A stretch of DNA of 64,000 nucleotides, from contig CBDBQH010000003.1 in NCBI GenBank assembly GCA_965208975.1, positions 1,348,792 through 1,412,791 on the forward strand, read 5' to 3'. The translations under genes and the position numbers were made by a program. Shown here piece by piece: positions 741 through 47,968 of the stretch. Below the pieces are notes generated by a model that did no database searches, was not told the DNA's origin, and saw only the letters and a program-made list of their open reading frames with translations. The stretch's first letter is position 1. Every line of letters starts with the position of its first letter. This DNA comes from Candidatus Poriferihabitaceae bacterium. Lineage in GTDB: Bacteria > Pseudomonadota > Gammaproteobacteria > Arenicellales > Poriferihabitantaceae.

Positions 741-741
741 G

Positions 742-26855: not shown

Positions 26856-27413
26856 GTGGATACTGTCAACTTCGTTCACATGATTGACGGCACCGCCGAA
26901 GAGTATGCTTTTCTTGTCAACCACGAGAAAGAACACGCAAAAACGCTGCCCGACCGATTGATGACGGCGTTGGCTGATCTCGAACACTCCTTTTCCGGCT
27001 ATCAAGTGAGCAGGCTGGAACACTCATTGCAATCCGCCACCCGGGCTCTTGACGCCGGAGAGTCCGAGCAAATGGTGGTGGCTGCCCTGCTGCACGACAT
27101 TGGCGACAACCTCGCGCCCTGCTCCCACAGCGAAATGGCGGCCTCGATACTGCGCCCTTATGTTTCGGAGAGAATCTACTGGATTGTCAAACATCATGGC
27201 CTGTTCCAGACCTGGTACTACGCCCATCATTTCGGCAAGGATCGTAATGTCAGGGAGCGCTTTCGCGAGCATGAATGGTATCAGGACTGTATTGATTTTT
27301 GTGAGAACTACGACCAGAACTGTTTCGACCCGGATTTCAAGTCAAAACCCCTGGAATTTTTCCGACCCATGGTGGAACGGGTATTCGCGGAACCGATGGC
27401 TCATTTTGTCTGA
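26856..27413 (+). CDS. HD-domain protein (possibly MIOX/PhnZ-like HD superfamily)
   Basis: 185 aa. HSLQSATRA...AALLHDIGD HD motif plus a second His cluster IVKHHGLFQ. Function not inferable. Confidence 0.7.
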   Translation: MDTVNFVHMIDGTAEEYAFLVNHEKEHAKTLPDRLMTALADLEHSFSGYQVSRLEHSLQSATRALDAGESEQMVVAALLHDIGDNLAPCSHSEMAASILRPYVSERIYWIVKHHGLFQTWYYAHHFGKDRNVRERFREHEWYQDCIDFCENYDQNCFDPDFKSKPLEFFRPMVERVFAEPMAHFV

Positions 27414-27534: not shown

Positions 27535-27990
27535 CGCCGCCGGTAAAAAACGGCTTCGTGTAATCGCCTGTGTCGCACTTTCAGGGGTTACCCTTGCCGT
27601 TTTTGGGTTGGGTCAATATCCGGCTTTCCAGCCTGCCACGCGCTGGACGCACTGGATGGGATTCCCGGCTATCGTCCTGATCGCGGTGTCCTGATCGCGG
27701 TTGCACAAACAGGCCGCACAGTCTGGCAGTCTTCACCTGTCGCCCCTGTGGCTATGGTTGACGGGTAAACGACGTTACCCGTTGGATTACCGGCCATGAC
27801 CTTCTCGCAAGGGTTTATCCGGTTGCGGTTCCCAGGGCGCGATATTGTTCGCTATCAATCGCGGCCACCGCGCTGGCTACCATCTGATAGCATTTTCGTT
27901 TGAGTTGGCGCCGTCTGGATCAAAAAATGCTATCGCTGTTTCTATTGACCAATCGTGACCCGCTCCGCCTTCAGGAAAACCCGCTATCGT

Positions 27991-28395
27991 TTATTCCTCT
28001 ATCAGGTGCCCGTATCTGTATTCTTCTTTATAAGCCTTGTCGCCTGGCTTTTTGGTTACCCAAATTCCGTTCCTCTTGCCGTCTACATACGGGCCTTCCG
28101 AAACCATGCGGCCAGCCAGGAATGTATCTACCCAATGCCCGTTTTTCTCGCCGTCTACAACCGGCCCTGTTCCAGTTCCGCCGTTTGGTAGGTCGATGGT
28201 CTGCCCCTGGGTCTCTTGCCAGGCTGTTTGTATCAAGGCTTCAATCATCCGTGACCGGGTGACCGGGTGCATCCACGCCAGTTCGTCCAGTTCGTCCCGT
28301 CTGGCCGGATGAAGTCGGATATTGACTTGTGCCCGTTTGTCCGCCGGGTCGGTTACCCGGTCAGACCAGCGCGCATAATGCTTGTGTTTGTTCAT
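27991..28395 (-). CDS. chimeric ribbon-helix-helix protein: RHH N-terminus (repeat-encoded) fused to a MORN-repeat-like C-terminus
   Basis: The N-terminal 68 aa are near-identical to the 40103-40450 product (KRAQVNIRLHPARRDELDELA...TRSRMIEALI, a beta-alpha-alpha RHH pattern). The C-terminal part, GEKNGHWVDTF...YVDGKRNGIWV, resembles MORN/YwqK-type repeats and begins where nucleotide homology ends (28191). Confidence 0.55.
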   Translation of the reverse strand: MNKHKHYARWSDRVTDPADKRAQVNIRLHPARRDELDELAWMHPVTRSRMIEALIQTAWQETQGQTIDLPNGGTGTGPVVDGEKNGHWVDTFLAGRMVSEGPYVDGKRNGIWVTKKPGDKAYKEEYRYGHLIEE

Positions 28396-28877
28396 CGGCT
28401 GATCCGGCTAATGTATAGCCAGTCCGAATTGTGGATTGTGTGAATCAATCCAGTGAAGTCATCAGCCAGCCGGTAGCCAAGCGGATAGCGGAGGTTGTGA
28501 CGGGTATATTAGGCAGTGGGAGCTTGCAGTTGTCGATGGTTGTGGTGCGTCATGGCAAACAACAACCGATGGTATTGGTCAGTACCGAGCGGATACGGGG
28601 TCGTTTGCAAGGGGAGCGATTGATTCAATCGTATATGGGTCGTTGGGCCTGTGAGGAAGGGTATCGGTTCAGCAAGCAGGGGTTTGGATTGGAGAAGGTT
28701 CAAGCCCGGAAACTGGCGACCTTGCAGAATCTGGTTGCACTGGCGACGTTAGCCTGGGGATTGCTGGCCTGTCACCAGAATCAGGGGCAGAAACTCATCT
28801 ACAAGGCGAAACGGCAAAAGAGTCACAAACCCCTGGTTTTCCCGTTCTACACGCTGTTATCGGGCTGGCAGGCGTTA
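28191..28877 (+). repeat. 687-bp direct repeat, copy A
   Basis: Colinear with 40246-40932 at a constant offset of 12055 nt. No indels detected from ORF and junction comparison. Scattered substitutions. Confidence 0.9.
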
Positions 28878-29240: not shown

Positions 29241-29780
29241 ATGTCCATGTCAAAAAGCCAATTTTCAGATTACTCTGACAGAATGTGGGAGTTACTCTTT
29301 TCAGTGCGTCGATCTTTTCATTACCATGAGCATCGGGAACGGTTTTTCACACTGCTGCATAACATGGTAAATTTAACCTGGATAATCTGTGGAACCCTTG
29401 CCGTGTGGAAATTGATGGAAAGTGACACACAGATATATTTAGTCGCTGTTCCAACTATTGCGTCTGTGATAGACATTATTATTGGTTTTGCTTCTAAAAT
29501 ATCTGTGCACAAGGTTCTGAAACAAAGATACCTGCAATTGGAAACGGAAATTGTCAGTGACCCGGACAATCAGAAATATGTGGATTTTCATCGTAAACGC
29601 AGAGTTATCGAATCGGATGAGCCACCTAAATTACATGCGTTGGATGTGCTTTGCCACAACGAAGTGGTCCGCGCTTCTTACCCCCCTGAGGATGCCAGGG
29701 AACATTTGGCAAAAGTTCCATGGTTGCCCCGATGCTCTGCTCAACTTTTGTCCTGGCCCAAGACAATGAGTTCAATATGA
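29241..29780 (+). CDS. 2-TM membrane protein with SLATT-like architecture
   Basis: 179 aa. Cytoplasmic helix (RRSFHYHEHRERFF), two adjacent TM helices (LTWIICGTLAVW, IYLVAVPTIASVIDIIIGF), then the helix SVHKVLKQRYLQLETEI. The layout resembles SLATT effectors. Family not verified. Confidence 0.5.
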   Translation: MSMSKSQFSDYSDRMWELLFSVRRSFHYHEHRERFFTLLHNMVNLTWIICGTLAVWKLMESDTQIYLVAVPTIASVIDIIIGFASKISVHKVLKQRYLQLETEIVSDPDNQKYVDFHRKRRVIESDEPPKLHALDVLCHNEVVRASYPPEDAREHLAKVPWLPRCSAQLLSWPKTMSSI

Positions 29781-29876: not shown

Positions 29877-31727
29877 ATGGATCGAACCCGGAAATATCAT
29901 GAGAGGCTGATCGGATTGCTCAAAACCGATGTGCGCTTCATTGATGATGAAGGGGAGCTGGTCAAGGCGGCAGTGATTGACCGCGCCTGGAAAATGGACC
30001 ACGGCCTGATGAGACTGTTGCTTGGCGATGAAAGAATAAAGACACAGTTCTTTGATGAAATTGAAGGGCATTGGCTTTTCAATACGAACACATTCATTGA
30101 CTACCTCTCCGATAAAAACTTCCTGGCCAATTCATATACCCGATTCCGCAACCGGATTGGTTTGAACATTGACAATAAATTCCTGCGACAGCGGGGCGAA
30201 GTATCCCTGGTTTGGCCATACAAGGATTGCGTACTGGAAGGCGGACAGACCAAAGAGGAGGAAAAACGCAAGGAGATTTTCTTCAATGAAATTCTGGCAC
30301 AGGACGAGATCGACCGATTACTCGACCCGAAAGTAATCACCAACTGGAAACGCTATACGATTGACGGTGATCAGAAAGTTACCGGGATCAGGCGGGATGA
30401 TGCCGGCGTAATCCGGGAAAATCTGATTATCAAGGGCAACAACCTGCTGGCATTACATACACTGAAAAAACAGTTCCGGGGCAAGGTAAAGCTGATTTAT
30501 ATTGATCCTCCATTTAATACAGAACGAGACAGTTTTACCTATAATGACAGTTTTACACATTCAGCATGGCTAACTTTTATACGGAGCCGACTTCTGGTTG
30601 CTTATGATCTTTTAAGGGCCGATGGAAATATTTTTGTACATGTTGACAACAATGAATCTCATTACATGAAGATCGTGCTGGATGAAGTTTTTGGAAGGGA
30701 AAATTTTGTAAATGAAATTATTTGGCACAAAGGAAGAGAAGGGGGTAGTTCGAGGTCACACTCAAAGAGTTCAGCAATGCCAACTGAATATCAGAATATT
30801 TTCATTTTTGCGAAAAACAAGTCATCGAGATTTTGGAACCCACCACTAGGCCCATATAAAAAATCCACTATTGGCCGAATTGAGAAAGATTCAAAAGGCT
30901 GGTTTTATACGAGGGGTCGAATGGGTAGAACACCAGCCGAATGGGAATTGCAAGCAGGATCAGGATTGAAAACATACATTTCTGACAGAGTTGATCTTGA
31001 TAAAGACAGAGTCATAGAAACCCTGACTGCACCCAATGCAAAATATGTAGCCATAGGAGATGTTTGGGGAAGAGAATTAGTAAAAAATTCAAAGGAAGCA
31101 AACTACGACACATCTAAACCAGAAGGATTGCTGAAGATGATCATTGAGGCAGCATCTAATCCGGGTGATTTAGTACTTGATTTCTTTCTTGGGAGTGGGA
31201 CGACTATGGCAGTATGCTTAAAATTGGATAGGAGATGTATAGGTATAGAACAGTTAGAAGGAGGAATAAACGCACTGATTCCGAGACTAAAAAATGTCAT
31301 CGGAAAAAATCTACAACAGAAGGAAAGCTTCCTCGAAGAAATTGAATGCGACACTGGCGGCATCTCCAAATCCGTAAACTGGCAAGGCGGTGGCGATTTT
31401 ATCTACTGTAAGTTGATGCGATACAACGAAGTCTGGATGGATAAAATCCAGGCCGGACGGTCTTCCGAGGAACTTGTAAAACTCTGGAAAGACATTGCTG
31501 AAAACTCCTTCCTGAACTGGTATGTGAACCCTGAAATCCCGGCGGAGGCGCTGACTGATTTTATTGCCATCGGGAAAAAGGAAAACGGGCTGGAGAAGCA
31601 AAAAACATTATTAGCGGAACTGCTGAACAAAAATCAACTCTACGTCAATCTTTCGGAAATAGACGACCAGGATTTTGCCGTCAACGAGGAAGATAAAGCA
31701 TTGAACAGAAAATTCTATGGATACTAA
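29877..31727 (+). CDS. mod: type III restriction-modification methyltransferase (Mod)
   Basis: 616 aa. N-terminal block NSYTRFRNRIGL, motif IV IYIDPPFNT before motif I LVLDFFLGSGTT (beta-class order), and the flanking AWLTFIRSRL...DGNIFVHVD typical of Mod. Confidence 0.9.
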   Translation: MDRTRKYHERLIGLLKTDVRFIDDEGELVKAAVIDRAWKMDHGLMRLLLGDERIKTQFFDEIEGHWLFNTNTFIDYLSDKNFLANSYTRFRNRIGLNIDNKFLRQRGEVSLVWPYKDCVLEGGQTKEEEKRKEIFFNEILAQDEIDRLLDPKVITNWKRYTIDGDQKVTGIRRDDAGVIRENLIIKGNNLLALHTLKKQFRGKVKLIYIDPPFNTERDSFTYNDSFTHSAWLTFIRSRLLVAYDLLRADGNIFVHVDNNESHYMKIVLDEVFGRENFVNEIIWHKGREGGSSRSHSKSSAMPTEYQNIFIFAKNKSSRFWNPPLGPYKKSTIGRIEKDSKGWFYTRGRMGRTPAEWELQAGSGLKTYISDRVDLDKDRVIETLTAPNAKYVAIGDVWGRELVKNSKEANYDTSKPEGLLKMIIEAASNPGDLVLDFFLGSGTTMAVCLKLDRRCIGIEQLEGGINALIPRLKNVIGKNLQQKESFLEEIECDTGGISKSVNWQGGGDFIYCKLMRYNEVWMDKIQAGRSSEELVKLWKDIAENSFLNWYVNPEIPAEALTDFIAIGKKENGLEKQKTLLAELLNKNQLYVNLSEIDDQDFAVNEEDKALNRKFYGY

Positions 31728-31773
31728 ACCGCTAATGACACAGGAATATTCAGCGCATCATCAGGAGTAAATT

Positions 31774-32001
31774 ATGAGAACAGAAATACAAACTACCCAA
31801 GATATATGGCCCATGCTGACACCCGTTGTTTTCGTTCCCCATGCGGATAATGAATACCAACGGTTGGTGGCTGTACTGGATAATTTGATTGATGTGGTGG
31901 GCGAAGATGAAAGCCACCCCCTGGCCTCACTCATGGAGGTCATTGGCGTGTTGATAGAAAAATATGAGGATGACCACGTTCCTGAACTGACGGAGGCATA
32001 A
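31774..32001 (+). CDS. small protein resembling only the N-terminal (non-HTH) part of HigA-type antitoxins
   Basis: 75 aa. Strong SD AGGAG 7 nt upstream of the ATG. LTPVVFVPHADNEYQRLVAVLDNLIDVVGEDESHPLASLMEVIGVLIEKYE parallels the E. coli HigA N-terminal region. No room for an HTH before res. Confidence 0.5.
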   Translation: MRTEIQTTQDIWPMLTPVVFVPHADNEYQRLVAVLDNLIDVVGEDESHPLASLMEVIGVLIEKYEDDHVPELTEA

Positions 32002-32052
32002 CAATCAGAAGACGGGCTCATTGGGAAACCAATCATTTCACCGGGCGATAAG

Positions 32053-34623
32053 ATGGCTGACAAGTATTTGTATGAGATACTGGATTCCGTCTCCCAAATG
32101 GGATTGTTAAAGAAAGAAATCCCCCGTTATCTCACGGATAATCTGAACCCCGCCCTTCAACTGCGTCCCTATCAGGAAGAAGTATTCGCCCGTTTTTTCC
32201 ACTGTCTTGCCAATGATTTTCCCGGCAAGAATCAGCCGTTGCATTTTCTGTTCAACATGGCAACTGGCAGTGGCAAAACCCTGATCATGGCGGGGTTGAT
32301 TCTCTATCTGTACGGGAAAGGCTATCGAAACTTTCTGTTTTTTGTCAACGCCTCGAATATCATTGAAAAGACAAAGGATAACTTCCTCAATCCGCTCTCA
32401 TCCAAATATCTGTTCAACGAAAACATCCATTACGGTACAAAAAGAATTGAGATAGCTCCAGTCACCAATTTTGAAGGCGCCAACGAAAACGGCATCAACA
32501 TCTGTTTTACCACTATCCAAAAACTGCATTCCAGTCTGACTATTGATAAAGAAAACGCGTTGACCTTTGAGGATTTCAGTAGAGGAAAAACCGTCCTTCT
32601 CGCAGATGAAGCCCACCACATCAACGTAAACACGAGGGCCGGAAAGAAATTATTTGAGAGTTGGGAAAATACGGTAGAACGCATCTTTATTCAGCACAAA
32701 AATAATTTACTGCTGGAATTTACCGCCACCCTGGATTACACCGATACAAATCTTGTCGATAAATACCGTAACAAAGTGTTATACCGATATGACCTGCGAC
32801 AGTTCCGCAATGACGGCTATTCCAAAGACGTTTGCATTGTTCAGGCAGATTTTGAGGAGAAAGACCGGATCATACAGGCGCTTATCCTCAACCAGTACAA
32901 GCAGGAAGTTGCAGCGAAATACACTATCAATTGCAAGCCGGTCATCCTGTTCAAGGCACAAAGAACAATTGCCCAATCCAAAGAGAACAAAGCCAGATTC
33001 CATAAGATCATTGAGAATCTTTCAGGCGATGACATTGACCGGATTTGGGACCAGTCAAACCTGCCACTGGTAAAGAGTGCATTTACTTTCTTCAAAGAAA
33101 ATCATATCTCTGCCAATCAGCTGGCGAAAAGGCTTCGCAGAGAATTTGATGAGAGTCGTTGTATTTCCGTAAATGAAGAAAAAGAAAAAGAAAATCAACA
33201 GATATTACTCAATACTCTGGAAGAACGGGATAACCATATTCGAGCCATTTTTGCAGTACAGAAACTGAATGAGGGTTGGGATGTCCTGAACCTGTTCGAT
33301 ATTGTCCGTTGTTATACGAATCGGGATGCAAAGGCTGGGAAACCGGGAAAAACAACTATTGCCGAAGCGCAATTAATCGGACGCGGAGCGCGTTATTTCC
33401 CTTTTGTTACCAACGACAACCCCGACCGATACCGGCGGAAATTCGACCAGAATCTGACTTCTGAACTGCGTGTGCTGGAAGAGATGCACTACCACAGTAT
33501 AAATGATTCCCGCTATATCTCTGAGTTACGTACTGCGTTGATTCAGGAAGGTATGGTAGATGAACGAGAGGTGACCAAGCCGCTCACACTAAAGGATTCG
33601 TTCAAGGCCACAGAGTTTTACCGGCATGGATTGGTCTACCTGAACAGCCGGGTCAGAAACCGATATGAAAAGGTTTACTCATTTTCTGATATGGGCGTTT
33701 CGTTACAAAACTATCAATATACGCTTGCAACCGGCCGGGGAGCATCTCAGTCCATCCTCGATAACAACGACAGTGTCAGTCAGGTCAAAGAAGCAGGCTC
33801 ACAAGAAATCAAAGTAAGGGATATTCCTGTTCACATAGTCAGAAATGCCATTGCCCAAAATTCTTTCTTTTCTTTCAACTCCATTAAAAAATATTTTCCT
33901 CATATTGAATCGGTGCGCCAATTCATTGATTCGGATGACTATCTCGGGGGGTTGGCAATCACATTTCAGGGAAATTTCCCCAACCCGTTACCTAATAAGG
34001 TCCAACTGGATGCGGTAACGGGTCTGCTCGGGGAAATCGAATCTGAGATGCGTAGAAATGCTACGGAATACAGGGGAACAGAAACATTCAAGCCATACGG
34101 GGTTGGTTCTGTATTCACGGCTAAAACCCTCAAATTGATTGAAGGCAGTGAAAGGGCCAATGGTGACGATCCGTTTGTTTCCGACAGGGAATGGTATGTC
34201 TTCAGCGCAAACTACGGGACCGGAGAGGAAAAGGCTTTTGTCCGGATGCTTGACCGCCAGATGGGTACACTGAAAGAAAAATACGATGAAATTTACCTGG
34301 TCCGCAATGAAAGGCATTTCAAGATTTACAGTTTTGACGACGGACAGGCGTTTGAACCGGATTTTGTTCTTGCTCTACGGGAGAAAAATGGAAATATGCT
34401 TACCTACCAGATGTTTGTTGAGCCTAAAGGAAAACATCTAAAAGATCATGACAAGTGGAAAGAGGAGTTTCTGCAACAAATTACGGACAAATTCAAGGGA
34501 AAAACACTGGAATTCAAAACGAAAATCAAGACCCAAAAATACAGGCTGGTGGGGGTTCCGTTTTATAACAATGAAGATGAAAACAGATTTAAGGAAAGTT
34601 TGTATGAGGCGGTGGGAATGTAG
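32053..34623 (+). CDS. res: type III restriction enzyme Res subunit (SF2 helicase + PD-(D/E)XK nuclease)
   Basis: 856 aa. Motif I MATGSGKT, II LLADEAHH, III FTAT, VI QLIGRGAR. C-terminal nuclease FEPDFVL...FVEPKG. Confidence 0.9.
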   Translation: MADKYLYEILDSVSQMGLLKKEIPRYLTDNLNPALQLRPYQEEVFARFFHCLANDFPGKNQPLHFLFNMATGSGKTLIMAGLILYLYGKGYRNFLFFVNASNIIEKTKDNFLNPLSSKYLFNENIHYGTKRIEIAPVTNFEGANENGINICFTTIQKLHSSLTIDKENALTFEDFSRGKTVLLADEAHHINVNTRAGKKLFESWENTVERIFIQHKNNLLLEFTATLDYTDTNLVDKYRNKVLYRYDLRQFRNDGYSKDVCIVQADFEEKDRIIQALILNQYKQEVAAKYTINCKPVILFKAQRTIAQSKENKARFHKIIENLSGDDIDRIWDQSNLPLVKSAFTFFKENHISANQLAKRLRREFDESRCISVNEEKEKENQQILLNTLEERDNHIRAIFAVQKLNEGWDVLNLFDIVRCYTNRDAKAGKPGKTTIAEAQLIGRGARYFPFVTNDNPDRYRRKFDQNLTSELRVLEEMHYHSINDSRYISELRTALIQEGMVDEREVTKPLTLKDSFKATEFYRHGLVYLNSRVRNRYEKVYSFSDMGVSLQNYQYTLATGRGASQSILDNNDSVSQVKEAGSQEIKVRDIPVHIVRNAIAQNSFFSFNSIKKYFPHIESVRQFIDSDDYLGGLAITFQGNFPNPLPNKVQLDAVTGLLGEIESEMRRNATEYRGTETFKPYGVGSVFTAKTLKLIEGSERANGDDPFVSDREWYVFSANYGTGEEKAFVRMLDRQMGTLKEKYDEIYLVRNERHFKIYSFDDGQAFEPDFVLALREKNGNMLTYQMFVEPKGKHLKDHDKWKEEFLQQITDKFKGKTLEFKTKIKTQKYRLVGVPFYNNEDENRFKESLYEAVGM

Positions 34624-34883: not shown

Positions 34884-35312
34884 ATGAGTACAAGACAAAT
34901 CCACGTTTTTATTAGTCATTCATGGGCTTACTCAAATCATTATCAAACTCTAGCTGATTGGATTTTTAATCAAAAGTGGAGCGTGGAGCAGGCATCCCTG
35001 GATTTTCGAGATTATTCTGTTCCACAAAGTGACCCAGTCCATAATGCAAATAATGACACGCAATTAAGACAAGCGCTTTACAATCAAATATCACGAAGCC
35101 ACGTTATTGTCATCCCAACTGGAATGTATGCCTCTTACAGTAAGTGGATACAAAAAGAGATTGATGGAGCTAGCCATTATAGAAAGCCTGTATTGGCAGT
35201 TAACCCCTGGGGCGCTCAAAGAACTTCTTCATATGTTAAAGATGTAGCAGACAAAATCGTTGGCTGGAATGCCAAGACTGTTGTTGGCGGGATTTGGGAA
35301 TTGTACAAGTGA
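34884..35312 (+). CDS. TIR-like domain protein (DUF1863/ThsB-like)
   Basis: 142 aa. IHVFISHSW start strand, VIVIPTGMYASYSKWIQKEIDGA containing the S-x-W-x(3)-E glutamate context used by TIR NADases, KPVLAVNPWG. Confidence 0.8.
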   Translation: MSTRQIHVFISHSWAYSNHYQTLADWIFNQKWSVEQASLDFRDYSVPQSDPVHNANNDTQLRQALYNQISRSHVIVIPTGMYASYSKWIQKEIDGASHYRKPVLAVNPWGAQRTSSYVKDVADKIVGWNAKTVVGGIWELYK

Positions 35313-36196
35313 TGAACGAATTTAAAATAAAATCTAGTGAAATGCCTGGATTGTATCAGTCTGCTGACCGGGCATCTCTTGATGCTCAAAGTAGTTACTT
35401 TACGGGCTTGCGATGGTATCTCGTCTTGCTGATTTGTGCTGCTTTTATTTCGTATGCTCGGCCCAATGACCTTATAGGTGCACTACTATCAGCAAGTCTA
35501 TTTTTAATCACTCTTGGAATTCTTGTGTTTATTCGTGTCAAAAAGCCTGATGACATTTGGTATAACGGCAGAGCTGTTGCTGAGTCAGTTAAAACAAGGG
35601 CTTGGCGATGGATGATGAGAGCTGAGCCTTATGAAGACCACCAAAACATTGAAATAGTTTCTAAACAATTCATTAACGATCTAAAAGCAATACTTAGTCA
35701 AAATAAAAGCTTATCCCATTCTCTTCAATCAACGGATGCTGTGGATGATCCTATTTCCCAGCCGATGAAGGATATAAGGACACTTTCCGTGTCTGAGAGA
35801 TTAGGAATATATGTAGATCAAAGAATTCAGAATCAAGTCAATTGGTATTGGACTAAATCCGGCTTTAATAAGCGTCGAGCCCAGCAATGGTTTTGGGTGT
35901 CCGTATTTTTGCATGCGTCAGCAATAGCCATGTTGTTATATCGGATTAAAGATCCAACCTTCTCTCTTCCGGTAGAGGTGGTTGCTACCTCAGCAGGAGC
36001 GGTATTAACTTGGTTACAAGCCAAAAAGCATAACGAACTAAATTCCGCATACGCTCTTGCTGCACATGAAATTGTATTGATAAAGGGAGAGTCTGCTTCT
36101 GTTTGTCGTGAACAGCAGCTTTCGGAATATGTGGTAAATAGTGAGGCAGCTTTCTCACGAGAACATACTCAATGGGTTGCTCGAAAAGGAGACTAG
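35312..36196 (+). CDS. SLATT/DUF4231-type membrane protein with two tandem 2-TM modules
   Basis: ATG overlaps the TIR stop (TGATG). Module 1 has TMs WYLVLLICAAFISY and LLSASLFLITLGILVFI followed by WYNGRAVAESVKTRAWRWMMRAEPY. Module 2 has RIQNQVNWYWTKSGFNKRRAQQWFWVSVFLHASAIAMLLY plus a further TM, then ELNSAYALAAHEI. Confidence 0.75.
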   Translation: MNEFKIKSSEMPGLYQSADRASLDAQSSYFTGLRWYLVLLICAAFISYARPNDLIGALLSASLFLITLGILVFIRVKKPDDIWYNGRAVAESVKTRAWRWMMRAEPYEDHQNIEIVSKQFINDLKAILSQNKSLSHSLQSTDAVDDPISQPMKDIRTLSVSERLGIYVDQRIQNQVNWYWTKSGFNKRRAQQWFWVSVFLHASAIAMLLYRIKDPTFSLPVEVVATSAGAVLTWLQAKKHNELNSAYALAAHEIVLIKGESASVCREQQLSEYVVNSEAAFSREHTQWVARKGD

Positions 36197-36348
36197 TTGC
36201 TAACAAAGCACTGCTACCGGAAAAAATTTTCTACTACTCACTAAACGGGCGTCCAGAACCATCCGAACAAGGTTAGCCCCATTGTTTCCAAAATCTGATG
36301 TTTTTGTGTCATCCTGAAAGATGATGGTGCGCGCAGATGTACGGCGTT

Positions 36349-36378
36349 TTGTATTATTAGAAACTAGTGCTGTATGAT
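36349..36378 (+). promoter_or_regulatory. candidate sigma70 promoter of the OLD-type gene (TTGTAT-N18-TATGAT)
   Basis: TTGTAT 36349-36354, 18-nt spacer, TATGAT 36373-36378, 26 nt upstream of ATG 36405. Confidence 0.4.
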
Positions 36379-36404
36379 GCACGGTTTTGTATCGGTTGCA
36401 GAAT

Positions 36405-38377
36405 ATGAAATTAACACACGCTCGGGTCCAAAACTTCCGTTCTATTCTTGATACAGGGAAGTTTTCTATAAACGACCTTTGTTGCCTTGTTGGGAAAAAT
36501 GAGGCAGGTAAAACTGCAACACTCACTGCTGTACAGTCAATTCTTCCATACGGGGATCCACAAACGTATTTTGATGTAACGGAAGACTACCCCCGTCGTT
36601 TTGCTACACGCTACCACGAAAGGCATAAAAATTCTGAGGCTGTTGTGGTAGAGACATGGTGGCAGCTTTGTGATGAGGGGTATGAACGGCTTTGTGAAGA
36701 ATTTAGCGAGGACGCTGTAAGGTCTCGTGAATTTCGCATTTACAAAAAATATAACACCGAAAATACTATATGGGATTTTGATCTGGATGAAGCTGTTGTA
36801 GTAGCGAGTATTCTTAAAGCCCATAGGTTGAATGCTACTGAGCAAGCCAGTCTTTCAAAATGTTCGACTATTTTGCAAGTTTTGGAAAAAATTGAAACCC
36901 GTGAGGAACCAACTGAAAAATTGAGAGCGATTGCTAAACATTTCGAGAACTATCAAAGATCAATTCAGTATAAAGCAACCGAATTGGTTGGTGATCTGGT
37001 TCCGACCTTCTTTTATACGTCTCATTATGACCGAATGAGCGGTAAATTGTCGATACAGAAAATTGCAGACAGAAAATTGCAGAGGACAAAAAAAATGATA
37101 ATGTTGATCCAGAAGATGAAATATTCCTGGATTTTCTGCGTCTTGCCGGAACTTCGCTGGAGGAATTGAATGAGGTGTCACGGTTCGAAGAACTCAACGC
37201 CAAATGTGAAGCAGCCTCCGCGGATATCACGGATCAAATATTCAAATACTGGTCTCAAAATGACAATCTTGAGGTAGAAGTAAAGCTCAGCGAGGGGCGA
37301 CCGGGCGATCCAGCACCTTTTAATTCTGGCGCCGTGGCTCGAGCTCGAGTATATAATCGGCTGCACCGGGCGAGTGTTTCCTTTTCTGATCGCAGTGCAG
37401 GTTTTGTCTGGTTTTTCTCCTTTCTTGTCCAGTTTGCCATGATGAGGCGCAATACAAGCAATGTAATCATACTACTTGACGAGCCTGGCCTGACGCTACA
37501 CGGAAAGGCACAAGCTGACTTGCTTCGCTATATTGAAGCTGAGCTTCTGCCTGACCACCAGGTTGTTTACACAACCCATTCCCCATTCATGGTTCCGCCG
37601 CAGAGGTTAGCTGATTGTCGTGTAGTTGAAGACGTTGTCAAACGCGACGAGCGAGACCGTCCTGTATCTGAAGGAACCAAGATTACAGATGACGCGATGA
37701 GCACAGACAAGGACACATTGTTCCCGTTACAAGGTGCGCTTGGCTACTCCGTCACTCAATCACTTTTCGTCGGTAAGAACAGCCTCCTTGTTGAAGGCAC
37801 ATCCGACATCCTGTATTTGCAGGCGCTATCGAGTGAAATTGAAAAGCGCGGTGGGATGTCACTCGACCCGAAATGGACACTCTGCCCTGCCGGGGGCATA
37901 GACAACCTGAGGCCATTCGTTTCCTTGTTCGCTGGAAACCACCTCAACATCGCGGTTCTTTCGGATCAAGCACAAGGAGATAAAAGTAAGGTTGAACGGC
38001 TCAGGAGAAGCGAAATTCTTGCCGCTGAACGGTTCCATACGATCGCTGAATTGCTTGACGAAGATGAAGCAGATATTGAGGACTTGTTTGTATCTGAATT
38101 GTTCTGTCGGATCGTAAATGAAGCTTATGGGTTAGAAGGAAATCATGCAGTTACGCCAGAAAAATTGAACGAAGTCGCAAATACAGAAAGGCAGGTTAAA
38201 CGGGTGGAGGCTTATTTCAATCGTCTGCCAGAAGCCATTCCAACTTTCAGCCATTTTCGTCCAGCAGAGTGGCTCATTCACAATGGAGAGATTTTGTCTG
38301 AGAAATCGGATTCGGTAAAAGGCACGCTTGAAAGAGCAGAGAAAATTTTTAAGATTTACAACGAAATATTGATATAG
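36405..38377 (+). pseudogene. OLD-family-type ABC ATPase + TOPRIM nuclease gene, frameshifted by a 14-bp tandem duplication
   Basis: Walker A VGKNEAGKT (N-terminal ORF 36387/36405-37169). Walker B IILLDEPG, H-loop TTHSP and TOPRIM-like LLVEGTSDILYL (ORF 37166-38377). Deleting one 14-bp copy joins the two ORFs in frame, giving ...GKLSIQKIAEDKKNDNVDPEDEIFLDFLRLAGTSLEELNEVSRF... Confidence 0.8.
37055..37083 (+). repeat. 14-bp tandem duplication (cagaaaattgcaga x2; period-14 identity spans 29 nt)
   Basis: 37056-37069 equals 37070-37083. The preceding base also matches. Confidence 0.95.
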
Positions 38378-39329
38378 CTGTCCCACTATAATTACAAAGC
38401 CCACCCGCCCCCGGCCCCAGATGTTCCTCTTTGCGCTCTTCCGCTAACTGAACCTGTCTCCCCCGCTCTGCAAACCGCGCCCTGTCCTGTTGTGAGCGCT
38501 TGCCGTGACATTTCGGGCAACTCACGCCCGGCTGATAATACTCGCTGGCCTTGTCTTTCTCCGTAACCGGCATGCGGCAGCCGTGGCACTGGTCATAACG
38601 GCCCCGGTTCAAATCATGGTCAACCGTGACCCGTTCATCGAACACGAAACATTCGCCCCGCCATCGGGACTCCGATACCGGGACGGTTGCGAGATAATTC
38701 AGGATTCCGCCTTGCAGATGATATACGGATTCAAAGCCGTTCTGTTTCAGGAAGGCCGTGGCTTTTTCGCAACGGATGCCGCCGGTGCAATACATGGCGA
38801 TCTTTTTGTGTGTTTCCGGGTCCAGGTTTTCCAATGCGTATTGCGGAAATTCCCTGAAATTGGTGGTATGGGGATTGACCGCATTTTCAAAGCGCCCCAC
38901 CTCGATCTCGTATTCGTTGCGGGTATCGACCACAAGCGTTTCGGGGTCTTCCAGCAGCGCATTCCAGTCTTCGGGATCAATATAGGTCCCCGCCAGTACC
39001 TGCGGATCAATATCTTCGACCCCCATGGTGACGATTTCTTCTTTCAGCTTGACCCGGGTGCGTTTGAACGGCATCCGGTCGGTCCCGGACTGCTTGTATT
39101 CAATACCGGAAAAACCGGCTTGCCCCTCCAGCCACTTCAGAAATTGATCAATCGCTTGCCGCTCACCGGCGATCGTGCCATTGATCCCTTCTTTCGCAAG
39201 CAACAAGGTGCCGGTGAGCGACAAGCCGGATAATTGATCCAGCATCGGTTGTTGCAGGGAAACGTAATGGGCAAGCGGCGTGAATTTATAAAATGTGCAA
39301 ACCACCAGGTTGTTTGCAGGTTCTGTCAT
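38349..39329 (-). CDS. trhO: rhodanese-domain tRNA uridine(34) hydroxylase (UPF0176/YceA family)
   Basis: 326 aa. N-terminus VCTFYKF..., EGINGTIAG, rhodanese active-site loop CTGGIRCEK, C-terminal Cys cluster CHGC...CPKCHG. Confidence 0.85.
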   Translation of the reverse strand: MTEPANNLVVCTFYKFTPLAHYVSLQQPMLDQLSGLSLTGTLLLAKEGINGTIAGERQAIDQFLKWLEGQAGFSGIEYKQSGTDRMPFKRTRVKLKEEIVTMGVEDIDPQVLAGTYIDPEDWNALLEDPETLVVDTRNEYEIEVGRFENAVNPHTTNFREFPQYALENLDPETHKKIAMYCTGGIRCEKATAFLKQNGFESVYHLQGGILNYLATVPVSESRWRGECFVFDERVTVDHDLNRGRYDQCHGCRMPVTEKDKASEYYQPGVSCPKCHGKRSQQDRARFAERGRQVQLAEERKEEHLGPGAGGLCNYSGTAISIFRCKS

Positions 39330-40102: not shown

Positions 40103-40450
40103 TTAATCCTCTGGTGACCGCCGGACAATCAACCCGTCCCGCCCCATTTCTGCCCGTAACTGTTCCAGGCTCTTACCTTTCCCGGTCGCTGGTCGATTGC
40201 TGGCCGGGGTCGATTGATCAACCTCGCCGCGCTCAATGGTGGCCGGGTCGATGGTCTGCCCCTGGGTCTCTTGCCAGGCTGTTTGTATCAAGGCTTCAAT
40301 CATCCGTGATCGGGTGACCTGGTGCATCCGCGCCAGGTCGTCCAGTTCGTCCCATCTGGCCGGATGAAGTCGGATATTGACTTGTGCCCGTTTGTCCGCC
40401 GGGTCGGTTACCCGGTCAGACCAGCGCGCATAATGCTTGTGTTTGTTCAT
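40103..40450 (-). CDS. ribbon-helix-helix protein (115 aa)
   Basis: Paralogue of the 27991-28395 N-terminus with a different C-terminal tail. Confidence 0.6.
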   Translation of the reverse strand: MNKHKHYARWSDRVTDPADKRAQVNIRLHPARWDELDDLARMHQVTRSRMIEALIQTAWQETQGQTIDPATIERGEVDQSTPASNRPATGKGKSLEQLRAEMGRDGLIVRRSPED

Positions 40451-40932
40451 CGGCTGATCCGGCTAATGTATAGCCAGTCCGAATTGTGGATCGTGTGAAT
40501 CAATCCAGTGAAGTCATCAGCCAGCCGGTAGCCAAGCGGATAGCGGAGGTTGTGACGGGTATATTAGGCAGTGGGAGCTTGCAGTTGTCGATGGTTGTGG
40601 TGCGTCATGGCAAACAACAACCGATGGTACTGGTCAGTACCGAGCGGATACGGGGTCGTTTGCAAGGGGAGCGTCTGATTCAATCGTATATGGGTCGTTG
40701 GGCTTGTGAGGAAGGGTATCGGTTCAGCAAGCAGGGGTTTGGATTGGAGAAGGTTCAAGCCCGGAAACTGACGACCTTGCAGAATCTGGTTGCACTGGCG
40801 ACGTTAGCCTGGGGATTGCTGGCCTGTCACCAGAATCAGGGGCAGAAACTCATCTACAAGGCGAAACGGCAAAAGAGTCACAAACCCCTGGTTTTCCCGT
40901 TCTATACGCTGTTATCGGATTGGCAGGCGTTA
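40246..40932 (+). repeat. 687-bp direct repeat, copy B
   Basis: See copy A. Boundaries located by base-by-base comparison at both junctions. Confidence 0.9.
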
Positions 40933-46030: not shown

Positions 46031-47239
46031 ATGAGCGATATAGATTTGAAACATCTGTTTACACCGGGCACTGGAGCGGTGCCACCTTATCTGGCTGGCC
46101 GCAAGGCGGAACGGGAGTATTTCCAGGATTGTGTCGAGATATTGACCGCCCGGAAACCAGTCAGTCGAGACCTGATTGTTTACGGCCCCCGTGGCAATGG
46201 CAAAACCGCCCTGCTCACCTACCTGCAACAAGAGACCCTCCAAAAAGAAGAGGAGAAGCTGGATATTCTGTGGGCGACACCGAAGGAACTGGAACATCCG
46301 GGAAAATTTATTGATCTGGTGATCGGAGACCATTCCGGTCTTCGTCGCAAGCTCACTTCCGGGGAATTCTCAGTTGATTTCGGTATTGTGCAAGCCAATG
46401 TAGGGATTGACCTGTCCAGGCGACCGTTGACCATCCAGGATTTGTTGCGGGAACGATGCCAGAGCAAGCCTCTGATTCTGATTATTGATGAGGCCCATCG
46501 CCTGAACCCACAGATGGGCGAGGAGTTGTTGAACGCCAGCCAGACCGTACGCAGGGAGGGCAACCCGTTCCTGCTGGTTCTGGCTGGTACTCCGAATCTT
46601 GAAGCGGCCCTGGGAAAGACCAACGCATCGTTCTGGGACCGTAGTGAACTCTTTCCATTGGGACGGCTGTCGCCTGAAGAAGCCGGGCAGGCCATCACGG
46701 CGCCGTTGGAAAAAGCGGGCGTATCCTTTGCCCCCGGCGTCGTCAAAGAAGTCGTTGAACGTGCGCATTGCTACCCCTTTTTCCTGCAAGTACAGGGCGA
46801 TTGTCTGGCTCGAAGACTGAATCAAACCGGGGAGGCGGTAATCACTATGGACACGACTCGGGAAGTGGAGGCGGAGGCACAAAGAAGGCGCGACGCTATG
46901 TATAAAATCCGGCACAATGAGATAGACAGAATGGGGCTATTACCTGTGGCCCAGAGTGTTGCAGATGCCTTTATCCAGGGCGGCGAGCCGATTCTGCATG
47001 GAAAAATCCTGAAGGAAACGATTGAAAAAGGAATGACAGGTGATGATGAACCGGCCACGGACAGGCGCATCATGGAGAAACTGGAGCAGCTTTCCCACCT
47101 CGGTTATGTCTGGCAGGTCGGAAGATATGACTACGAACCCGGTATCCCGAGCCTGATGTCTTTTGTGCGGGAATATTCACTGTGCCAAACCCGGGTGGGA
47201 GCGCACAAAGCGCCGGGCATGGAAAGGCAGGAGTGGTAG
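46031..47239 (+). CDS. stand-alone AAA+ ATPase (archaeal-ATPase/Orc1-like N-terminus) with a helical C-terminal region
   Basis: 402 aa. SD GAGGGAG upstream. PPYLAGRKAEREYF lead-in, Walker A GPRGNGKT, Walker B LILIIDEAH. C-terminal half not recognised. Confidence 0.7.
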   Translation: MSDIDLKHLFTPGTGAVPPYLAGRKAEREYFQDCVEILTARKPVSRDLIVYGPRGNGKTALLTYLQQETLQKEEEKLDILWATPKELEHPGKFIDLVIGDHSGLRRKLTSGEFSVDFGIVQANVGIDLSRRPLTIQDLLRERCQSKPLILIIDEAHRLNPQMGEELLNASQTVRREGNPFLLVLAGTPNLEAALGKTNASFWDRSELFPLGRLSPEEAGQAITAPLEKAGVSFAPGVVKEVVERAHCYPFFLQVQGDCLARRLNQTGEAVITMDTTREVEAEAQRRRDAMYKIRHNEIDRMGLLPVAQSVADAFIQGGEPILHGKILKETIEKGMTGDDEPATDRRIMEKLEQLSHLGYVWQVGRYDYEPGIPSLMSFVREYSLCQTRVGAHKAPGMERQEW

Positions 47240-47278: not shown

Positions 47279-47896
47279 ATGCTCACAGGCATCAACCGGC
47301 GTCTGATCATCCGACTGGTCCTCTTTCATATCGGGATCATCGCGCTGTCGAACTACATGGTCCAGTTTACCGGCGCATTCATGGGGTATACGTTCACCTG
47401 GGCGATGTTTGTTTTTCCTGTCGTCATACTGGCTACCGACCTGACGGTCCGATTATCCAATCAGCGCAATGCCCGGATTGTGGTTGGTCTGGCGTATATT
47501 CCGGCCATCCTGATCAGCACCTGGTTGGCGGACTGGAGGATTGGGATGGCCAGCGGCACGGCCTATCTGGTCGGACAATTACTGGATATTACGGTATTCC
47601 AGAAAATACGTGAAAAGGCAAGGGCATGGTGGCCGGCGCCTCTGATCTCGACACTGGTCGCCAATATCATTGATACGTATACTTTTTTCGCAGTCGCGTT
47701 CCATCACTCCGCCGATGAGTTCATGGCAGTCAACTGGTTTGAGGTGGCTACGGTGGATCTGTGTTTCAAGATTGCCGTCTCGGTTGTGTTGTTCCTGCCT
47801 GCTTATGGAGCTTTGCTAAACCACCTCCGGGCCCGGCGTGACCGTAGCGATAGCCCTGCTTTTGACCATCCCGAAAATGACCATCCCGAAAATTGA
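47279..47896 (+). CDS. yhhQ: queuosine-precursor transporter (YhhQ/DUF165 family)
   Basis: 205 aa, colinear with E. coli YhhQ (LFHIGIIALSNYMVQ, FPVVILATDLTVR, WWPAPLISTLVANIIDT, VDLCFKIAVSVVLFLPAYG). Confidence 0.85.
   Translation: MLTGINRRLIIRLVLFHIGIIALSNYMVQFTGAFMGYTFTWAMFVFPVVILATDLTVRLSNQRNARIVVGLAYIPAILISTWLADWRIGMASGTAYLVGQLLDITVFQKIREKARAWWPAPLISTLVANIIDTYTFFAVAFHHSADEFMAVNWFEVATVDLCFKIAVSVVLFLPAYGALLNHLRARRDRSDSPAFDHPENDHPEN
47864..47893 (+). repeat. 15-bp tandem duplication at the 3' end of yhhQ (gaccatcccgaaaat x2, encoding DHPEN-DHPEN)
   Basis: 47864-47878 equals 47879-47893, immediately before the TGA. Confidence 0.9.
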
Positions 47897-47936: not shown

Positions 47937-47968
47937 ACTCAGATATTGGTATACTCAGATATTGGTAT
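47937..47968 (+). repeat. 16-bp tandem duplication (actcagatattggtat x2) upstream of the second TRAP operon
   Basis: 47937-47952 equals 47953-47968, ending 19 nt before ATG 47988 (SD AGGAG). Confidence 0.9.

What the first reader, a model, noticed from the sequence alone, without database searches (positions are those of the whole stretch)
36349..38377. OLD-type ABC-ATPase/TOPRIM nuclease gene inactivated by a perfect 14-bp tandem duplication
The track shows two ORFs, 36387-37169 and 37166-38377. The first carries Walker A (GKNEAGKT) and ends in an implausible tail (RTKKMIMLIQKMKYSWIFCVLPELRWRN). The second carries Walker B (IILLDEPG), TTHSP and a TOPRIM-like LLVEGTSDILYL.

At 37056-37083 the sequence cagaaaattgcaga occurs twice in tandem. 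Removing one copy joins frame 0 to the frame of the second ORF, which is open from 37046. The result is a continuous 652-aa protein from ATG 36405, reading ...MSGKLSIQKIAEDKKNDNVDPEDEIFLDFLRLAGTSLEELNEVSRFEELNAK....

The gene is therefore a recent pseudogene, or a reversible OFF state, since short tandem duplications can collapse by slippage.

The VEGxxD form of the TOPRIM motif and the absence of a partner helicase leave two possibilities open. It may be a class-1 OLD nuclease or a fused PARIS-like (AriA-AriB type) protein.
Basis: partly seen in the sequence, partly recalled or inferred. Interest (0 to 1): 0.65.

Follow-up and report, generated by a model that had tools for sequence, protein, structure and literature searches.

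The report
Broken stand-alone OLD defence nuclease gene
A phage-defence nuclease gene of the OLD family, in a defence island of an uncultured gammaproteobacterium, has been knocked out of frame by a clean 14-base tandem duplication; this is an ordinary, recent gene inactivation, not a new kind of system.

Summary
CAGAAAATTGCAGA occurs twice in tandem at 37056-37083. Deleting one copy fuses ORFs 36387-37169 and 37166-38377 into one 652-codon frame from ATG 36405. About 108 of the 120 best homologues are uninterrupted proteins of about 653 aa. Six orthologous loci show a clean 14-nt gap exactly at the second copy.

The repaired protein is an OLD-family ABC-ATPase/TOPRIM nuclease. Its closest solved structure, by sequence and by fold, is the Class 1 OLD of Thermus scotoductus. 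No partner gene is conserved in about 25 related loci, so it is stand-alone (Class 1 by context). It is not Gabija, retron or PARIS.

The frameshift removes 28 conserved codons, and no in-frame start lies upstream of them. dN/dS against an intact syntenic orthologue is 0.14 and there is no second lesion, so the break is recent. Reversion by collapse of the repeat is possible, but nothing marks this as an evolved switch.

Caveats: reads could not be checked, and the window holds five blunt 14-16 bp duplications, which is unexplained. An A8 run 4 nt downstream forms an A_AAA_AAA heptamer in the mutant frame, so leaky rescue cannot be excluded.

The parts
36405..38377 (+). Interrupted OLD-family nuclease gene. 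It is 1973 nt as found and 1959 nt (652 codons plus stop) after removing one 14-bp copy.
   Evidence: Repaired translation has no stop. It is collinear with homologues of about 653 aa that start MKLTHARVQNF. Pfam AAA_15 4.3e-19 and OLD-like_TOPRIM 23.0 bits; PADLOC Old 9.4e-22.
36405..37169 (+). ORF1 as encoded: codons 1-225 of the nuclease (Walker A lobe and helical insertion) followed by 29 out-of-frame codons and TGA. The ORF listing starts it at TTG 36387; homology puts the true start at ATG 36405.
36492..36515 (+). Walker A / P-loop, GKNEAGKT (G30-T37; K36 corresponds to Ts OLD K34).
   Evidence: Sequence. HMMER alignment to 6p74 residues 2-45. G30, N32, E33, G35 and K36 are invariant in 127 homologues.
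37056..37069 (+). First copy of the 14-bp unit CAGAAAATTGCAGA (the ancestral sequence).
   Evidence: Orthologues carry a single copy.
37070..37083 (+). Second copy of the 14-bp unit: the insertion that shifts the frame after codon 225.
   Evidence: A 14-column gap in all six orthologous loci lies exactly here (alignment A2).
37084..37165 (+). Codons 226-253 of the ancestral protein (EDKKNDNVDPEDEIFLDFLRLAGTSLEE). They are now read out of frame in ORF1 and lie upstream of any ATG/GTG/TTG start in the ORF2 frame, so neither product contains them.
   Evidence: The stretch includes columns at least 90% conserved among close homologues (D233, I235, F236, L237, F239, L240, L242, A243, G244, T245, L250); L237, L240 and A243 are at least 90% conserved across 127. 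The model places helices 231-242 and 247-252 here, with pLDDT about 86-93.
37088..37095 (+). A8 run, the only A or T homopolymer of 8 or more in the 64 kb. In the ORF1 (mutant) frame it reads ACA AAA AAA ATG, an A_AAA_AAA -1 slippery heptamer at 37088-37094. A -1 ribosomal slip, or one extra A in RNA or DNA, would rejoin the frames and give a 657-aa protein with ED replaced by DRKLQRT.
   Evidence: The run is absent from six orthologues. No downstream structure: z = 0.13.
37159..37177 (+). Possible restart site for ORF2: GGAGGA (37159-37164), TTG 37166 overlapping the ORF1 stop TGA 37167-37169, and GTG 37175. The database gene call P0054 (400 aa, MSRFEELN...) uses GTG 37175.
   Evidence: Whether translation occurs is inference.
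37166..38377 (+). ORF2: C-terminal 403 codons carrying the signature-like RSAGF, Walker B, D-loop His, H-loop, TOPRIM and a C-terminal helical region. It lacks Walker A.
37466..37489 (+). Walker B, IILLDEPG (residues 350-357; E355 corresponds to Ts OLD E276). The D-loop His H361 follows.
   Evidence: HMMER alignment to 6p74. L352-L358, L360 and H361 are invariant. Ts residues are from PMC7049728.
37571..37585 (+). H-loop, TTHSP (H387 corresponds to Ts OLD H310).
37784..37807 (+). TOPRIM motif LLVEGTSD: E459 and D463 align with Ts OLD metal ligands E377 and D381.
   Evidence: alignments; Ts residues. E459, G460 and D463 are at least 90% conserved.
37964..37966 (+). D516, at the end of strand 511-515. 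It aligns with Ts OLD D431, the first Asp of the DxD metal-A site. The second Asp is not conserved in this family.
   Evidence: alignment (family ...avlhD... against Ts VVVHDED).
38042..38374 (+). C-terminal helical region (residues about 542-652), with invariant E554, D555 and R591. Ts OLD has no counterpart of this length.
   Evidence: Model secondary structure with pLDDT 82-95; invariants. The Ts OLD alignment ends near residue 516 of the family profile.

Best explanation
This is a gene for a stand-alone OLD-family nuclease. It has an N-terminal ABC-type ATPase with a helical insertion, a C-terminal TOPRIM nuclease domain and a helical tail. It sits at the end of a low-GC defence island in the chromosome of an uncultured gammaproteobacterium. 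The island holds a Type III restriction-modification system, a ThsB-like TIR plus SLATT pair, and this gene.

Shown:
- A 14-bp blunt tandem duplication at 37070-37083 shifts the frame after codon 225.
- The encoded products are a 254-aa N-terminal fragment (Walker A only, 29 missense residues) and, at most, a restart product of about 400 aa that lacks Walker A.
- Twenty-eight conserved codons are present in neither product.

Inferred:
- By analogy with Ts OLD and P2 Old, where both the Walker A lysine and the TOPRIM metal ligands are needed, the locus as encoded should not make a working ATP-dependent nuclease.
- The lesion is recent. It is the only defect, and the rest of the gene carries the signature of purifying selection.
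- It is best seen as one more case of turnover of a costly, dispensable defence gene. It could revert by precise loss of one copy, but it shows no sign of being an evolved switch.
For: Lesion:
- Exact duplication and frame repair.
- A clean 14-nt insertion relative to six orthologous loci.
- About 108 of the 120 best homologues are uninterrupted proteins of 648-674 aa, collinear across the junction.

Identity:
- Pfam AAA_15 4.3e-19, and OLD-like_TOPRIM 23.0 bits against a cut-off of 23.2. PF20469 is listed for most homologues.
- PADLOC best model is Old, 9.4e-22.
- Best PDB sequence match is 6p74, the Ts OLD Class 1 enzyme: 7.8e-11 with profile A1 and 2.2e-16 with profile A3, covering Walker B through TOPRIM.
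- AlphaFold model has pLDDT 88.9 and pTM 0.78. Its best Foldseek hit is 6p74 at 7.3e-14, followed by GajA structures.
- K36, E355, H361, H387, E459, D463 and D516 align with Ts catalytic residues K34, E276, H283, H310, E377, D381 and D431.

Stand-alone status:
- No conserved neighbour in 18 loci within 4 kb either side or in seven further contexts.

Recency:
- dN/dS is 0.14 against the intact syntenic orthologue in L023. Intact-intact pairs give 0.03-0.13.
- L023 shares TIR-SLATT-OLD at 86-90% nucleotide identity.

Island:
- GC 0.41-0.48 against 0.53-0.55 in the flanks; defence genes identified.

Reality of the duplication:
- The four other 14-16 bp duplications in the window lie in harmless places, as expected for real mutations filtered by selection.
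Against: - No reads are available, so an assembly or polishing artefact, or a minority allele, cannot be excluded.
- The window has about 8 times the density of such duplications seen in 422 kb of comparison loci. The cause is unexplained and could be technical.
- A -1 slip at A_AAA_AAA, or one extra A in the A8 run, would restore the frame. 'Inactivated' may therefore mean 'strongly attenuated'.
- ORF2 has a plausible ribosome-binding site and start. Whether the two fragments complement each other was not tested.
- No function of this roughly 650-aa subfamily has been shown experimentally. Defence is inferred from family membership and island context.
- Global TM-scores to Ts OLD are low (0.29-0.35).
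Confidence: 0.8

Rival explanations
1. Reversible OFF state or leaky allele. The duplicated allele is a heritable but unstable OFF or LOW state of a costly nuclease. Three routes lead back: precise collapse of the 14-bp repeat by replication slippage; gain of one A in the A8 run 4 nt downstream (14 + 1 = 15 nt, in frame); and, without any mutation, -1 ribosomal frameshifting or transcriptional slippage at A_AAA_AAA. The last would give a low level of a 657-aa protein with a 5-residue larger loop.
For: - A perfect tandem repeat is a substrate for slippage (established knowledge). Reversible tandem duplications are cited for Ralstonia phcA in bioRxiv 10.1101/2023.04.27.538605. Reversible agr lesions, including poly(A) tract changes, are reported in S. 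aureus (PMC6686034).
- The A8 run is the only A or T homopolymer of 8 or more in 64 kb. It falls in the 0 frame as A_AAA_AAA only in the mutant allele, and the simulated slip gives a stop-free 657-aa product.
- The affected residues, 226-230, lie in a variable loop between helices.
Against: - There are only two copies, and no repeat at this site in six orthologues, so this is not an evolved contingency tract.
- The A8 run is also absent from the orthologues.
- No stimulatory downstream structure: z = 0.13. The only SD-like GAGG lies 2 nt upstream, which is not the spacing known to stimulate -1 shifts (own knowledge).
- One duplication studied in S. aureus agrA did not revert.
- No population data are available.
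Confidence: 0.1
2. Assembly or consensus artefact. The genome really carries one copy of the 14-mer and an intact gene. The second copy was introduced during long-read assembly or polishing, or it reflects a minority haplotype.
For: - The source contig is 2.1 Mb (P0054), and the nearest relatives come from Mb-scale metagenome contigs, so a long-read metagenome assembly is likely.
- Related contigs carry single-base homopolymer frameshifts in the same gene (L020 and L003), which is typical of such data.
- Five 14-16 bp blunt duplications in 64 kb is an unusual density.
Against: - A perfect 14-bp tandem duplication is not a typical long-read error type (own knowledge).
- The other four duplications avoid disrupting intact genes. 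Two are intergenic, one is in frame at a C-terminus and one is in already degraded DNA. That would be unlikely for random artefacts in DNA that is mostly coding.
Confidence: 0.1
3. A natural two-gene arrangement, a PARIS-like split of ATPase and TOPRIM, that functions as two subunits.
For: - PARIS encodes the ATPase (AriA) and the TOPRIM (AriB) separately, and fused forms exist (PMC12392090).
- ORF2 has a GGAGGA and a start overlapping the ORF1 stop.
- The PADLOC AriA model matches residues 1-392 at 3.4e-21.
Against: - The break lies inside the ATPase domain, between Walker A and Walker B, not between the ATPase and the TOPRIM.
- Twenty-eight conserved codons are lost from both products.
- Homologues are overwhelmingly single proteins.
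- Other split copies break at different sites.
- The break is produced by an insertion absent from all orthologues.
- DUF4435 is not detected, and AriA structures match only about 45 residues around Walker B.
Confidence: 0.01

Closest known systems
Class 1 OLD family nucleases (Thermus scotoductus OLD, PDB 6P74; phage P2 Old; Vibrio cholerae Class 1 OLD; E. coli YbjD)
   Same: - Single gene encoding an N-terminal ABC ATPase with an inserted helical domain plus a C-terminal TOPRIM.
- Best sequence and fold match is 6P74.
- P-loop Lys, Walker B Glu, D-loop His, H-loop His, the TOPRIM E-x3-D and the first Asp of DxD are all conserved.
- No conserved partner gene.
   Different: - 652 aa against 528 aa for Ts OLD, with a helical C-terminal region of about 110 aa carrying invariant E554, D555 and R591.
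- The second Asp of DxD is not conserved.
- No tblastn match to P2-like phage Old at E <= 1e-3.
- It lies in a defence island, whereas one review describes Class 1 genes as usually isolated (PMC10568477).
- This copy is frameshifted.
Gabija GajA (Class 2 OLD)
   Same: - ATPase-TOPRIM architecture.
- Full-length Foldseek matches to GajA (8u7i, 8sm3, 8x5i; E 7e-12 to 4e-10).
- PADLOC GajA models hit at 2.7e-15 and weaker.
- A helical region follows the TOPRIM, as in Class 2 (PMC7049728).
   Different: - No UvrD/GajB-like helicase downstream, here or in any related locus. The downstream gene here is trhO on the other strand.
- Sequence matches to GajA are much weaker than to Ts OLD: 1.2e-5 against 2.2e-16.
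PARIS (AriA/AriB, Class 4 OLD), including fused AriAB
   Same: ABC ATPase of the same broad AAA_15 type. A TOPRIM nuclease of the OLD superfamily.
   Different: - AriA matches cover only the region around Walker B.
- DUF4435 is not detected.
- The PADLOC AriAB hit is partial (residues 339-475, 8.6e-12) and weaker than Old.
- The split here is a mutation inside the ATPase, not a domain boundary.
Reversible gene inactivation by short tandem duplication or homopolymer slippage (Ralstonia phcA, S. aureus agr)
   Same: A perfect short tandem duplication causes a frameshift, with a homopolymer next to it. Both are lesion types known to revert.
   Different: No evidence here of switching, of copy-number variation or of conservation of the repeat.

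Membership tests
OLD family nuclease (any class) | N-terminal ABC-type ATPase with P-loop, Walker B and H-loop | tested here: met
   AAA_15 4.3e-19 over residues 1-392. GKNEAGKT, ILLDEPG and THSP are present and invariant in 127 homologues. They align to Ts OLD K34, E276 and H310.
OLD family nuclease (any class) | C-terminal TOPRIM domain with acidic metal ligands (Ts OLD E377, D381, D431/D433) | tested here: met
   LLVEGTSD aligns with Ts LLVEGYGD, and D516 aligns with Ts D431. PF20469 scores 23.0 bits, just under the 23.2 cut-off, on this protein, but is listed for most homologues. The second Asp of DxD is not conserved.
OLD family nuclease (any class) | Overall fold resembles a solved OLD protein | tested here: met
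   Model pLDDT 88.9. Foldseek top hit is 6p74 (E 7.3e-14, probability 1.00), followed by GajA. Global TM is only 0.29-0.35, so domain arrangement or extra regions differ.
Class 1 OLD | Single-gene system with no dedicated partner gene (definition in PMC12392090 and PMC7049728) | tested here: met
   No neighbour is shared among 18 loci within 4 kb either side. Contexts differ in L020-L028. TIR-SLATT lies upstream only in the window and its close syntenic relative L023.
Class 1 OLD | Shorter protein lacking the C-terminal helical domain of Class 2 (a property of Ts OLD) | tested here: inconclusive
   The protein is 652 aa and the model shows a helical C-terminal region, residues about 542-651. 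Whether this is homologous to the Class 2 helical domain was not determined.
Class 2 OLD / Gabija | [quoted passage not shown] | tested here: not met
   The downstream gene is trhO on the minus strand. No helicase lies next to the gene in related loci.
Class 3 OLD / retron | Adjacent reverse transcriptase and msr/msd non-coding RNA | tested here: not met
   The neighbours are a SLATT gene and trhO. No reverse transcriptase appears in the gene lists of related loci. The non-coding RNA was not searched for.
Class 4 OLD / PARIS | AriA ATPase plus AriB DUF4435-type TOPRIM, separate or fused | tested here: not met
   No DUF4435 hit at E <= 0.01. The AriAB model gives a partial, weaker hit than Old. 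AriA structures match only about 45 residues and are absent from the top 50 fold hits.
Phase-variable contingency locus | Repeat tract conserved in relatives, with variable copy number | tested here: not met
   All six orthologous loci have one copy and divergent sequence at the site. Variation within the population is not testable with these tools.
Programmed -1 ribosomal frameshift site | Slippery heptamer in the 0 frame, plus a stimulator, plus conservation | tested here: not met
   The heptamer A_AAA_AAA is present in the 0 frame. There is no downstream structure (z = 0.13), and the A8 run is absent from the orthologues.

The most novel reading that the evidence does not exclude
The duplicated allele is not dead but is a tunable low-expression or bet-hedging state of a costly nuclease. 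The 14-bp insertion happens to place the adjacent A8 run in the 0 frame as A_AAA_AAA. A -1 ribosomal slip or transcriptional slippage would then yield a small amount of a full-length 657-aa enzyme. Two DNA-level routes, collapse of the repeat or A8 to A9, would restore full expression. Separately, the five blunt 14-16 bp duplications in this window could mark a genome-specific mutational process, such as fill-in of staggered breaks, that generates such states.
Probability: 0.08. Interest if true: 0.5.

Novelty: new member of a known kind. Interest (0 to 1): 0.25.

Why it matters
This is a clean example of recent loss of a defence gene by a simple mutation. Related islands carry different lesions: an IS inside the neighbouring SLATT gene in L023, truncation of the OLD gene next to an IS in L021, and frameshifts in L020 and L003. 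This fits the known rapid turnover of defence genes.

The roughly 650-aa stand-alone OLD subfamily is widespread. Thousands of homologues occur across many phyla, and 75 plasmid records carry one, annotated only as 'AAA family ATPase'. It is uncharacterised, and whether Class 1 OLD proteins defend on their own is listed as an open question (PMC10568477).

The finding itself does not change what is known.

Tried and rejected
- Natural PARIS-like split: rejected. The break is inside the ATPase, conserved codons are lost, and the insertion is absent from orthologues.
- Conserved partner gene: none found. TIR-SLATT adjacency is shared only with the close syntenic relative L023, so it is read as shared island ancestry, not a three-gene system.
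- Recurrent break hotspot: four disrupted relatives break between codons 138 and 225. The hit list favours N-terminal breaks and the lesions differ in kind, so this was not pursued.
- L022 (P0007) first looked 5'-truncated by an IS. The DNA encodes the full protein in one frame, 88% identical, so it is intact.
- Stimulators of -1 frameshifting: none.
- Promoter and terminator scan of 36100-38500: nothing above shuffles.
- Search for either allele in JGI metagenome contigs with CAGAAAATTGCAGAN{0,14}GGACAAAAAAAATGA: no match.
- Near-identical DNA in plasmids: none.
- Exact look-up of the window's ORF2 product: not on record.
- First structure model from 19 sequences was poor (pLDDT 64). It was replaced by a 127-sequence model.
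The precomputed Pfam lists were used instead.
- Removing one copy of each other tandem duplication restores no long ORF.
Full report
**1. The observation**

The 14-mer CAGAAAATTGCAGA lies at 37056-37069 and is repeated exactly at 37070-37083. Period-14 identity spans 37055-37083, so the junction carries only 1 nt of microhomology.

The two ORFs are as reported: 36387-37169 (260 aa, with an unconserved 28-residue tail) and 37166-38377 (403 aa). The second frame is open from 37046. Deleting one copy gives a stop-free 652-aa product from ATG 36405.

A perfect 14-bp tandem repeat is expected about 2.4e-4 times in 64 kb of random sequence (own arithmetic), so the repeat is not chance.

**2. Is it an insertion relative to relatives?**

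A search of the repaired protein returned thousands of homologues. About 108 of the best 120 are uninterrupted proteins of 648-674 aa that cover the whole query, at up to 83% identity. The alignment runs straight through the junction without a gap.

At the DNA level, six orthologous loci (L001, L002, L003, L020, L021, L022) show a clean 14-column gap exactly opposite the second copy.

The closest true orthologues are L022 and L023:
- L022 is 88% identical in protein and intact in one frame.
- L023 shares the whole TIR-SLATT-OLD block at 86-90% nucleotide identity and has an intact OLD gene.

It is not met. Other disrupted copies are broken elsewhere and differently:
- L020 lost one A from an A run near codon 164.
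- L003 gained one base near codon 580.
- L021 is truncated at codon 154 next to an IS.
- A Rhizobium plasmid copy (L029) is split near codon 138.

**3. What the gene encodes**

- Pfam gives AAA_15 (4.3e-19, residues 1-392) and OLD-like_TOPRIM (23.0 bits against a cut-off of 23.2, residues 453-516). PF20469 is listed for most homologues.
- The best PADLOC model is Old (9.4e-22). AriA matches only the ATPase. GajA and AriAB are weaker or partial.
- Against PDB sequences, the best match by a wide margin is 6P74, the Class 1 OLD of Thermus scotoductus: 7.8e-11 with a 19-sequence profile and 2.2e-16 with a 127-sequence profile. The aligned stretch runs from Walker B to the TOPRIM. GajA scores 1.2e-5, and AriA matches about 45 residues around Walker B.
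- A 127-sequence AlphaFold model is confident (pLDDT 88.9, pTM 0.78). Its best Foldseek match is again 6P74 (7.3e-14), followed by GajA structures. Global TM-scores are low (0.29-0.35), so domain placement or extra regions differ.

Using the residues defined for Ts OLD (PMC7049728), the alignments equate the following:

| This protein | Ts OLD |
|---|---|
| K36 | K34 |
| E355 | E276 |
| H361 | H283 (the unusual D-loop His) |
| H387 | H310 |
| E459 | E377 |
| D463 | D381 |
| D516 | D431 |

All are invariant or nearly so in 127 homologues.

Differences from Ts OLD:
- The protein is about 125 aa longer.
- It has a helical C-terminal region (about 542-651) carrying invariant E554, D555 and R591.
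- The second Asp of DxD is not conserved.

**4. Partner genes and class**

An all-against-all comparison of ORFs within 4 kb either side in 18 loci found no shared neighbour. Seven more contexts (L020-L028) also differ, and are often other defence genes such as GmrSD, Type I R-M or SLFN/AlbA.

- No UvrD-like helicase follows the gene. Here the downstream gene is trhO on the other strand.
- No reverse transcriptase is adjacent.
- DUF4435 is not detected.

By the published context-based scheme (PMC10568477 and PMC12392090), this is a Class 1 (single-gene) OLD nuclease of an uncharacterised subfamily of about 650 aa. It is annotated in databases only as 'AAA family ATPase'.

**5. Consequence of the lesion**

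The frame shifts after codon 225, at the end of model helix 217-225.

- ORF1 keeps the P-loop lobe and the helical insertion, then reads 29 wrong codons to a TGA.
- Ancestral codons 226-253 lie upstream of any ATG, GTG or TTG in the ORF2 frame and are absent from both products. They include helices 231-242 and 247-252 and eleven columns at least 90% conserved among close homologues.
- ORF2 could be translated. GGAGGA lies at 37159-37164, TTG 37166 overlaps the ORF1 stop, and GTG 37175 is the start used by the database gene call P0054. Its product lacks Walker A.

For P2 Old, both the Walker A lysine and the TOPRIM ligands are required in vivo (PMC7049728). I therefore infer loss of function. 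This step is inference, not a test.

**6. Age**

The repaired gene has no other defect. Its dN/dS against the intact L023 orthologue is 0.14, close to the intact-intact pairs (0.03-0.13). The gene was under purifying selection for essentially all of its divergence, so the duplication is recent.

**7. Setting**

ValS is 84-91% identical to proteins from unnamed Mb-scale metagenome contigs and 65-67% identical to Thiohalophilus and Sedimenticola. With valS, pepA, tig-clpX and nuo genes in the window, the source is the chromosome of an uncultured gammaproteobacterium.

The OLD gene ends a low-GC island (0.41-0.48 against 0.53-0.55) that contains:
- Type III mod and res genes (29877-34623).
- A ThsB-like TIR gene (34884-35312).
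- A SLATT gene (35294-36196).

Two 687-bp direct repeats, 98% identical and matching IS701/IS4-type transposase fragments, bracket the region at 28191-28877 and 40246-40932.

**8. Reversibility and leakiness**

A perfect tandem repeat can collapse by slippage, and such reversions are documented elsewhere. Here there are only two copies, and no orthologue has a repeat at the site. Nothing suggests an evolved contingency tract.

It is the only A or T homopolymer of 8 or more in the window and is absent from orthologues. In the mutant frame it reads ACA AAA AAA ATG, a canonical A_AAA_AAA -1 slippery heptamer. A -1 slip, or one extra A in RNA or DNA, rejoins the frames and gives a 657-aa protein in which ED becomes DRKLQRT in a variable loop. 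No downstream structure supports programmed frameshifting (z = 0.13). I rate leaky or reversible behaviour as possible but unsupported, at about 0.1.

**9. Artefact?**

Reads are not available. The window holds five perfect two-copy duplications, all 14-16 bp, with 0-2 nt of junction microhomology. That is about eight times the density in 422 kb of comparison loci. This is unexplained and might be technical.

The other four duplications sit where they do no harm:
- Two are intergenic (711 and 47937).
- One is in frame at the very C-terminus of ORF 47279-47896, giving DHPEN-DHPEN.
- One (27674) lies in short-ORF DNA, with no ORF longer than 73 aa, upstream of an IS fragment.

That pattern is what selection on real mutations would leave. 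It is unlikely for random errors in mostly coding DNA. I put the artefact reading at about 0.1.

**10. Verdict**

The finding is real and correctly interpreted. It is a recent frameshift, by a 14-bp tandem duplication, of a stand-alone (Class 1-type) OLD-family nuclease gene in a defence island. It is a new member of a known kind carrying an ordinary lesion, and interest is low to moderate.

Noticed in passing
window 711-742, 27674-27701, 37055-37083, 47863-47893, 47937-47969: Five perfect two-copy tandem duplications, all 14-16 bp, with 0-2 nt of junction microhomology. There are none of 11-13 bp or of 17 bp and above. Density is about 8 times that in 422 kb of comparison loci. Four lie in harmless positions. 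The cause is unknown: a genome-specific blunt-duplication process, or a technical artefact.
   Followed up: partly
window 28191-28877 and 40246-40932: A 687-bp direct repeat, 98% identical, matching C-terminal fragments of IS701/IS4-type transposases. The two copies bracket the defence island plus trhO. An ABC-transporter-like ORF at 39727-40317 matches only about the first 106 positions of a 584-position SmdB-type model, and the second repeat copy starts inside it at 40246.
   Followed up: partly
window 34884-36196; L023 3773-7798: A ThsB-like TIR gene (142 aa) overlaps the start of a SLATT_3+SLATT_1 two-TM effector gene (300 aa). This looks like a two-gene defence module with no PADLOC model for the SLATT partner. 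The same pair, 90-91% identical, lies upstream of the intact OLD gene in L023, where the two SLATT-matching segments are separated by about 2.7 kb containing a transposase gene.
   Followed up: partly
window 29877-34623: A complete Type III restriction-modification system (Mod 616 aa, Res 856 aa) in the same low-GC island. A 179-aa ORF of unknown function lies upstream at 29241-29780.
   Followed up: no
window 9166-9188: A C23 homopolymer between the ORFs ending at 9019 and starting at 9300. It could be a hypermutable tract or a sequencing problem.
   Followed up: no
L020 7851-7860; L003 11736-11758; L021 about 7770-7830; L029 3001-4966: Orthologues or homologues of the same OLD gene are disrupted in other genomes by different lesions: loss of one A in an A run, a +1 frameshift, 5' truncation next to an IS3-type element, and a split in a Rhizobium plasmid. 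The single-base cases may be long-read errors.
   Followed up: partly
window 23180-24559 (minus strand): A Dcm-type cytosine-5 DNA methyltransferase (458 aa) about 5 kb upstream of the island. A neighbouring 369-aa ORF at 21999-23108 was not examined, so a further R-M system is possible.
   Followed up: no
window 46031-47239: A 402-aa ORF with a P-loop (VYGPRGNGKTALL) and no NCBIfam match at E <= 1e-10. It is an uncharacterised ATPase next to the two duplications at 47863 and 47937.
   Followed up: no
window 26856-27413: A 185-aa ORF whose only NCBIfam matches are weak and partial, to PhnZ-type HD-domain phosphonate oxygenases (positions 18-98 of a 179-position model). Its identity is uncertain. 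Only short ORFs lie between it and the IS fragment at 28191.
   Followed up: no
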